Assembly (NCBI RefSeq): GCF_001447785.1 | Contig: NW_015170898.1 | Span: forward strand, 1,206,549 to 1,270,548 | Direction: 5' to 3' | DNA: 64,000 nt | From: Gekko japonicus | Taxonomy: Eukaryota | Shown here: piece by piece, positions 3,470 through 3,954 of the stretch | Layout: every line of letters starts with the position of its first letter | Numbering within the stretch: the stretch's first letter is position 1 | The notes under the pieces: model-generated | The model's input: only the letters and a program-made list of their open reading frames with translations | Told to the model about the DNA's origin: nothing | Databases searched by the model: none | Translations under genes and position numbers: made by a program

Positions 3470-3851
3470 CTGAGGACCTCATCCAGGGGTATATCCGGAA
3501 ATTACTCTCTGCCTGGCTGTGCAGGTTGCCTTCCTCCGCCTTCTCACAGCTGGCTTTGGTTAGGTCACTGCAGAGGACGGGAATGTTCTGGTCAAAGGAG
3601 GAGCAGTGGAGGTTGTAGGCGTCTGAGCCCCCCAGGCTGTATCCGGAGGAGAAGGGGCTCTGGTATAGGGTGCTGTTCACATTGTACAAGCCGGGCATGG
3701 AGGAGGCGAAGGCGCTAGCGCCGGGTCCATAGCCGCCTCGCTGGGAGTTGGTAGCGAAGGAGCAGGACGTAGGCTCTGCATTTTGGAAGAGCGAAGCGGC
3801 CCCCGTCGTATATTTGCTAAAAAGAGCGTTCACATAATACGAAGAACTCAT
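3470..3851 (-). CDS. HOXA7: HOXA7 exon 1
   Basis: MSSSYYVNALFSKY... through the hexapeptide IYPWMRSSG. Donor G|GTAGGG at 3470/3469. 382 nt (phase 1); with exon 2 gives 226 aa. Confidence 0.97.
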
Positions 3852-3954
3852 AATTTTGACCGGTGATTTGTTGTCCGGTAGGCTTCGGTGTCGGTTTTAC
3901 GAGGTAGCGTGATATATGATAACATTACACCCCCAGATTTACACCAAACCCCAT
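3848..3954 (-). promoter_or_regulatory. HOXA7 leader with two chained uORFs
   Basis: uORF1 3954-3925 (MGFGVNLGV*) and uORF2 3925-3848 (MLSYITLPRKTDTEAYRTTNHRSKL*), overlapping as TAATG and then ATGA with the CDS start. Confidence 0.75.

What the first reader, a model, noticed from the sequence alone, without database searches (positions are those of the whole stretch)
3848..3954. Stop-start coupled uORF chain leading into HOXA7 (TAATG, then ATGA)
Seen: uORF1 (9 aa, 3954-3925) ends in a TAA whose last A starts uORF2 (TAATG). uORF2 (25 aa, 3925-3848) ends in a TGA overlapping the HOXA7 start (ATGA). Established: these two overlaps are the classic geometries of termination-reinitiation coupling in bacteria and some viruses. 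Inference: the leader may be a translational relay or a start-codon-stringency sensor. As I recall it, the mammalian leader keeps the same frames, which would imply selection. I do not know of this double coupling being described as such.
Basis: partly seen in the sequence, partly recalled or inferred. Interest (0 to 1): 0.7.

Follow-up and report, generated by a model that had tools for sequence, protein, structure and literature searches.

The report
HOXA7 leader uORF pair, not relay
The leader of this lizard-type HOXA7 gene holds two short upstream reading frames whose stop codons touch the next start codon, but protein records from a cattle-type animal, quail and zebra shark lack the second contact, so these are likely ordinary brakes on translation inside a very conserved promoter-leader, not a virus-like ribosome relay.

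Summary
Both overlaps are real. The ATGA overlap is cheap: HOXA7 starts Met-Ser(AGT), so any open -1-frame uORF ends there. That happened in 5181 of 20000 shuffles, the whole chain in 302 of 20000, and HOXA13 in this window has the same overlap. The uAUG2 region is ancient: 11-14 of its first 14 codons match in 10 shark, frog, bird and bovine protein records. Conservation also runs through untranslated frames, so it is nucleotide-level. There is no TURBS core. Best reading: an ultraconserved promoter/leader in which uORF1 likely carries ribosomes past uAUG2 to reinitiate at HOXA7 74 nt on, while leak-through into uORF2 is lost. Hox-leader uORF stringency sensing is published (PMC8892498), though Hoxa7 is not among its 13 genes, so the main start site may lie downstream of the uAUGs. 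No start-site or ortholog DNA data were obtained. The scan had not noted this on other DNA. New member of a known kind; interest low.

The parts
4009..4013 (-). Reverse CCAAT-box match (promoter, inferred)
   Evidence: motif scan; consensus recalled
3993..3998 (-). E-box-like hexamer; contains a start-stop uATG at 3997
   Evidence: mouse Hoxa7 has two E-boxes whose double mutation abolishes promoter activity (PMC9456764 passage); that these are the same two sites is inferred
3981..3986 (-). Canonical CACGTG E-box
3963..3969 (-). Initiator-consensus match; predicted +1 at 3967, giving a 116-nt leader
   Evidence: consensus recalled; fits the ~112-nt mouse leader in PMC9456764; not mapped here
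3951..3957 (-). YY1-like core overlapping uAUG1 (would explain its strong context)
   Evidence: match present, but 46 matches in the window against 47 expected; consensus recalled; lead from e1-7788409
3925..3954 (-). uORF1, 9 aa, strong context, about 13 nt from the predicted cap, stop overlapping uAUG2
3848..3925 (-). uORF2, 25 aa, intermediate context, stop overlapping the HOXA7 start; first 14 codons conserved to sharks
3913..3918 (-). TATA-like hexamer inside uORF2 (possible promoter element for a downstream start site)
   Evidence: inference
3939..4025 (-). Further 28-aa uORF starting upstream of the E-boxes; present only in long or read-through transcripts (inferred)
3470..3851 (-). HOXA7 coding exon 1
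2159..2457 (-). HOXA7 coding exon 2 (homeobox)

Best explanation
The 116 bases before HOXA7 are likely an ultraconserved promoter-leader whose two real stop-start overlaps are probably by-products, and whose two upstream AUGs would act only as ordinary scanning-model brakes. On transcripts starting at the predicted initiator (3967), ribosomes that start at uAUG1 would make 9 residues and stop on top of uAUG2. They would have no initiator tRNA yet, so they would pass uAUG2 and reinitiate at HOXA7 74 nt further on. Ribosomes that leak past the cap-proximal uAUG1 and start at uAUG2 would end just beyond the HOXA7 AUG and be lost to it. The expected result is a modest, stringency-sensitive dampening of HOXA7, not a hand-over chain. 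Shown: geometry, contexts, chance rates, conservation pattern in protein records, absence of a TURBS core. Inferred: start site, translation of either uORF, bypass of uAUG2, size of the effect.
For: (1) ATGA follows from the Met-Ser(AGT) start: 5181/20000 shuffles give such an ending; 207 of 905 minus-strand ATGs in the window are ATGA; HOXA13 has the same overlap from a 5-aa uORF, 1 of the 4 other HOXA genes. (2) The second junction is not invariant: 10 of 174 HOXA7-type proteins retrieved carry the uORF2 peptide fused in frame. Five are not flagged low quality: P0133/P0062/P0134 (exon 1 of P0133 and P0062 identical to bison; 18+1+1 contigs; 72 nt), quail P0183 (75 nt) and zebra shark P0149 (72 nt). 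(3) Conservation ignores ORF limits: the 12 codons upstream of uAUG2 in its frame match 12/12 (bovine-type) and 10/12 (frog), against 14/14 and 12/14 inside the uORF; shark and bovine tails match the untranslated main-frame stretch. (4) E-boxes, CCAAT and initiator matches lie directly upstream; the mouse region is a promoter with a ~112-nt leader (PMC9456764). (5) Reinitiation after short uORFs needs distance, 79-140 nt being favoured for preproinsulin, and overlapping uORFs typically repress (PMC10275272). (6) Similar layout at HOXA9 in this window: uATG at -91, stop 71 nt before the main AUG, 7 codons as in PMC8892498.
Against: Hoxa7 is absent from the 13 mouse Hox genes with conserved, CAGE-contained, ribosome-profiled uORFs in a screen of all 39 (PMC8892498), so the uORFs may lie outside the main mRNA or be untranslated. 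Three low-quality-flagged models (chimaera, skate, frog) follow the uORF2 frame for 21-23 of 24 codons, which suggests the gecko spacing is ancestral and long kept, more than a pure by-product needs. The chain is a 1.5% event for this leader. No ortholog DNA was seen, so conservation of uAUG1 and of TAATG is only inferred from peptides. The 74-nt spacer is slightly below the 79-140 nt range cited.
Confidence: 0.5

Rival explanations
1. Purely transcriptional: the main start site lies downstream of one or both uAUGs, the stretch is conserved as promoter DNA (E-boxes, initiator, YY1-like, homeodomain TAAT core, TATA-like hexamer at 3918), and the uORFs are rarely translated.
For: Hoxa7 is not among the 13 genes of PMC8892498. 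The Hoxa7 row of the PMC9456764 dataset lists 3 internal refTSS sites. Conservation is nucleotide-like and crosses ORF limits. uAUG1 sits in a YY1-like core and uAUG2 in a TAAT core (motif roles recalled).
Against: The ~112-nt mouse leader would include both uAUGs if spacing is as here. The YY1-like 7-mer is not enriched in the window (46 against 47 expected).
Confidence: 0.33
2. uAUG2 is kept for its own product or use: a conserved nascent-peptide uORF, or an alternative start that gives an N-terminally extended HOXA7 where the frame allows.
For: 11-14 of the first 14 residues are identical from sharks to a bovine; in-frame fusions exist in three lineages.
Against: Equal conservation upstream of the AUG in the same frame; the visible replacements (S to P, P to S, T to K, Y to F) each need only one base change; the C-terminal half changes frame between lineages. 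A synonymous-site test needs DNA that was not obtained.
Confidence: 0.1
3. Termination-reinitiation relay: ribosomes pass uORF1 to uORF2 to HOXA7 through the two overlaps, as in caliciviruses and influenza B.
For: Both overlaps have the viral geometry; the chain is a 1.5% event; TURBS-independent coupling has been reported for a few cellular mRNAs (PMC5972666 section 16); the gecko spacing appears old (flagged models).
Against: No UGGGA between 4100 and 3848, and no structure in uORF2 (z 0.16). Junction 2 is lost in three lineages. Reported coupling is about 10% per junction or far less, so two steps could not compete with simple scanning.
Confidence: 0.04

Closest known systems
Conserved inhibitory uORFs of Hox mRNAs (Hoxa1, a9, a11 and 10 more; Ivanov et al. 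2022, PMC8892498; abstract, results, methods section 12 and first part of the discussion read; SI appendix not readable)
   Same: Short Hox leader, uAUG in suboptimal context (uAUG2), conservation to fish level; the window's HOXA9 and HOXA11 uORFs have the published lengths of 7 and 12 codons.
   Different: Hoxa7 is not on that list; here there are two uORFs, the first in strong context, the second overlapping the main start and fused in frame in some lineages.
ATF4/GCN4-type permissive uORF1 plus inhibitory overlapping uORF (PMC5972666, passages read)
   Same: Short first uORF, downstream uORF that blocks the main ORF, outcome set by when initiator tRNA is reacquired.
   Different: The spacer between the uORF1 stop and uAUG2 is zero, so bypass would be constitutive and stress would be expected to lower, not raise, output (inferred, untested).
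TURBS-dependent termination-reinitiation of caliciviruses and influenza B; cellular candidates SLAMF1, GAD, CASQ2 (PMC10275272 section 13 and PMC5972666 section 16 read, plus passages)
   Same: UAAUG and AUGA overlaps; SLAMF1 has a 29-codon uORF overlapping its main start.
   Different: No UGGGA motif 1, no structure, short upstream ORFs, overlap not kept across orthologs.
Hyperconserved Hoxa 5' leaders reinterpreted as E-box promoters (Akirtava et al. 2022, PMC9456764; passages, SI legends, primer table and one dataset row read)
   Same: Hoxa7 is one of them; two E-boxes; short real leader (~112 nt).
   Different: In the passages read the paper does not discuss Hoxa7 uORFs.

Membership tests
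TURBS-type termination-reinitiation | Stop and start overlapping or within about 20 nt | tested here: met
TURBS-type termination-reinitiation | UGGGA motif 1 upstream of the junction | tested here: not met
   no TGGGA in 4100-3848; only TGGG at 3953 and 3935; definition
TURBS-type termination-reinitiation | Stem (motifs 2/2*) presenting motif 1 | tested here: not met
   uORF2 region folds like shuffles (z 0.16); whole predicted leader z -1.73
TURBS-type termination-reinitiation | Junction kept in orthologs | tested here: not met
   in-frame fusion in 5 unflagged protein records from 3 lineages; protein level only
TURBS-type termination-reinitiation | Downstream output depends on upstream termination at the overlap | not testable with these tools
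   needs reporters
Conserved inhibitory Hox uORFs (PMC8892498) | uAUG inside the CAGE-defined leader | tested here: inconclusive
   initiator match at 3969 and ~112-nt mouse leader favour it; absence from the 13-gene list does not; SI Table S1 unreadable
Conserved inhibitory Hox uORFs (PMC8892498) | Suboptimal uAUG context | tested here: met
   uAUG2 has -3 G and +4 T, so met; uAUG1 is strong, so not met for that one
Conserved inhibitory Hox uORFs (PMC8892498) | Present in at least 90% of placental mammals | tested here: inconclusive
   one bovine-type lineage has a fusion instead of a uORF; no mammalian DNA obtained
Conserved inhibitory Hox uORFs (PMC8892498) | Ribosome footprints and reporter repression | not testable with these tools
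   no ribosome-profiling data available here
Conserved-peptide uORF | Conservation confined to the ORF, with excess synonymous change | tested here: inconclusive
   conservation equally high upstream of the AUG, which argues against; dN/dS needs DNA

The most novel reading that the evidence does not exclude
HOXA7 carries an ancient two-AUG switch: a cap-proximal uORF ends exactly on a second, jawed-vertebrate-wide upstream AUG so as to shield it, an inverted ATF4 design in which stress or relaxed start-codon stringency would cut HOXA7 output; in cattle-type animals, quail and zebra shark the same AUG instead yields a HOXA7 with 24-25 extra N-terminal residues, a lineage-specific change in a body-plan regulator.
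Probability: 0.15. Interest if true: 0.6.

Novelty: new member of a known kind. Interest (0 to 1): 0.27.

Why it matters
If the uORFs are translated, HOXA7 joins the Hox genes whose protein output is tuned by start-codon stringency, with a shielding layout I did not find described and a natural three-lineage experiment (uORF turned into an N-terminal extension) that is cheap to test. A true double relay in a vertebrate mRNA would have been surprising, but the evidence is against it. If the start site is downstream, this is only known hyperconserved promoter DNA.

Tried and rejected
Own genome: none held, so no HOXB7 leader. Ortholog DNA: metagenome scan with a protein alignment (43 stretches, none confirmed) and a leader motif in metagenome, genome and viral contigs (0 each). 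Sequencing runs: no RNA holder listed; no read data on the start site were obtained. Profile-wide protein search with the shark extended form: the best 150 were dominated by homeodomains and none matched the extension. Search with the bovine-type extension alone: 1 candidate, its own cluster. HOXB7: 0 of 55 B7-type proteins retrieved had an extension, which says nothing about its leader. Rfam: no family at the leader. TURBS and leader structure rejected. The YY1-like core is not enriched. Five low-quality-flagged models (P0096, P0106, P0150, P0151, P0153) were left out of the in-frame count because that label marks machine-corrected frames (meaning recalled); outside the extension three of the four shark/ray ones differ from unflagged relatives by 0-3 residues at equal length (no equal-length relative for P0151). 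Literature: 10 searches gave no paper describing HOXA7 uORFs or a double overlap; PMC12048685 does not mention Hoxa7; bioRxiv 10.64898/2026.10.20.760540 mentions only HOXA7 coding-region footprints; PMC2120959, PMC2200052 and PMC2289952 were held as little more than reference lists.

Full report
Observation. The window is a lizard-type HOXA cluster with HOXA7, A9, A10, A11 and A13 on the minus strand; the HOXA7 exon-1 protein is 100% identical over 60% of its length to a Gekko kuhli record. The described chain is exact: uORF1 3954-3925 (9 aa), uORF2 3925-3848 (25 aa, 78 nt), HOXA7 ATG at 3851. uAUG1 has a strong context (-3 A, +4 G); uAUG2 and the HOXA7 AUG are intermediate. Two further uATGs lie upstream, at 4025 and 3997.

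Is it more than chance? HOXA7 begins Met-Ser with an AGT codon, so a TGA overlaps the start whatever the leader does. In 20000 dinucleotide shuffles of the predicted 116-nt leader placed before the real CDS, a uORF ended on the main start in 5181, two uORFs overlapped stop-to-start in 1468, and the whole chain appeared in 302. Of the four other HOXA genes in the window, HOXA13 has the same ATGA ending from a 5-aa uORF. The chain is therefore uncommon for one gene (1.5%) and unremarkable for a family of 39.

Surroundings. Directly upstream lie a reverse CCAAT match (4013), two E-box-type hexamers (3998, 3986) and an initiator match with predicted +1 at 3967 (consensus motifs recalled). PMC9456764 (passages, SI legends, primer table, one dataset row) reports that the mouse Hoxa7 upstream region is a promoter abolished by mutating two E-boxes, that the real leader is about 112 nt, and lists three internal start sites. 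If spacing is alike, uAUG1 is 9-13 nt from the cap. uAUG1 also sits in a YY1-like core, a lead taken from earlier finding e1-7788409; the 7-mer is not enriched in the window (46 against 47 expected), so this remains a possibility only. No start-site data for this animal were obtained.

Orthologs. No ortholog DNA was found, so I used protein records in which gene callers began upstream. Of 174 HOXA7-type proteins retrieved, 10 carry the uORF2 peptide (window: MLSYITLPRKTDTE for the first 14 residues) fused to HOXA7; the other 164 start at the normal Met and say nothing about the leader. All 10 match 11-14 of those 14 residues, from chimaera, skate and sharks to frog, quail and a bovine-type mammal. 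Five are not flagged as low quality. P0133, P0062 and P0134 are ENA/Logan records on 18, 1 and 1 contigs; exon 1 of P0133 and P0062 is identical to the bison record; they switch from the uORF2 frame to the main frame after codon 14, 72 nt in all. Quail P0183 (NCBI, Logan, UniRef) has 75 nt and switches only at the end. Zebra shark P0149 has 72 nt. The five flagged models were left out of that count. Three of them (chimaera, skate, Discoglossus) follow the uORF2 frame for 21-23 of 24 codons before jumping; since the flag marks machine-corrected frames (recalled), their genomes probably have the gecko spacing, so the overlap is likely ancestral but dispensable. Conservation does not respect the ORF: the 12 codons before uAUG2 in the same frame match 12/12 (bovine-type) and 10/12 (frog), and shark and bovine tails match the main-frame stretch that is untranslated here. 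That is what nucleotide-level constraint gives. Conservation of uAUG1 and of TAATG is compatible with those peptides but not shown.

Mechanism. TURBS-type coupling needs a UGGGA core and a stem (PMC5972666 passages); neither is present (no TGGGA in 4100-3848; fold z 0.16 for the uORF2 region and -1.73 for the whole leader). After a short uORF the 40S subunit must travel before it regains initiator tRNA; overlapping uORFs typically repress, and 79-140 nt was the favoured gap for preproinsulin (PMC10275272 section 13; PMC5972666 section 16 on SLAMF1). Applied here (inference): ribosomes finishing uORF1 stand on uAUG2 without tRNA, skip it and reinitiate at HOXA7 74 nt on; ribosomes leaking past uAUG1 may start uORF2 and are lost. 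This does not need the frame at junction 2 to be kept, which fits the three in-frame lineages. HOXA9 in the window has a similar layout (uATG -91, stop 71 nt before the main AUG). I give this 0.5, the promoter-only reading 0.33, a peptide or extension role 0.1 and the relay 0.04.

Against my reading. PMC8892498 (abstract, results, methods section 12, first part of the discussion) screened all 39 mouse Hox leaders by CAGE, at least 90% conservation in placentals and ribosome profiling, and lists 13 genes; Hoxa7 and Hoxb7 are not among them, whereas the window's HOXA9 and HOXA11 uORFs reproduce the published 7 and 12 codons. Which criterion Hoxa7 failed would be in SI Tables S1-S2, which could not be read. 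The apparent age of the 74-nt spacing is also more than a pure by-product needs.

Prior art. Stringency-sensing uORFs in Hox leaders are published. [quoted passage not shown] Ten searches found no description of the HOXA7 pair or of a double overlap; the library lacks most subscription and older papers, and unread supplements may list these uORFs. The scan's own index had no look-alike.

Verdict. Observation confirmed; relay not supported; a likely ordinary uORF pair in a hyperconserved Hox promoter-leader, a new member of a known kind. The one fresh point is the repeated conversion of uORF2 into a potential N-terminal extension. Interest 0.27.

Noticed in passing
window 12994-13014 (-) and 36617-36652 (-): HOXA9 (6 aa plus stop) and HOXA11 (11 aa plus stop) uORFs have the 7- and 12-codon lengths published for mouse in PMC8892498; HOXA9 also has the E-box/CCAAT pair at -177/-160.
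   Followed up: partly
window 55309-55326 (-): HOXA13 has a 5-aa uORF starting 14 nt upstream and ending in the same ATGA overlap with the main start.
   Followed up: partly
window 22687-22959 (-): HOXA10: an out-of-frame ATG 16 nt before the first in-frame ATG opens a 90-aa frame overlapping the coding start.
   Followed up: no
proteins P0133/P0062/P0134, P0183, P0149: Bovine-type, quail and zebra shark records have the upstream AUG in frame with HOXA7 (24, 25 and 24 extra residues); several NCBI low-quality shark, ray, chimaera and frog models appear to have been forced into the same extended form.
   Followed up: partly
window 3992-3997 (-): A start-stop uATG is embedded in the upstream E-box-like site.
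   Followed up: no
window 17723-17801 (-); 37287-39483 (+): Rfam hits: mir-196 precursor and three HOXA11-AS conserved regions, as expected for a HOXA cluster.
   Followed up: no
window 3019-3057 (-): A short tandem duplication of about 16 nt in the HOXA7 intron, in or near the conserved intronic element.
   Followed up: no
window 3113-3398, 10818-10955, 13285-13422, 22693-22825, 23873-23901: Five runs of N in the window, one in the HOXA7 intron and one inside HOXA10 exon 1.
   Followed up: no
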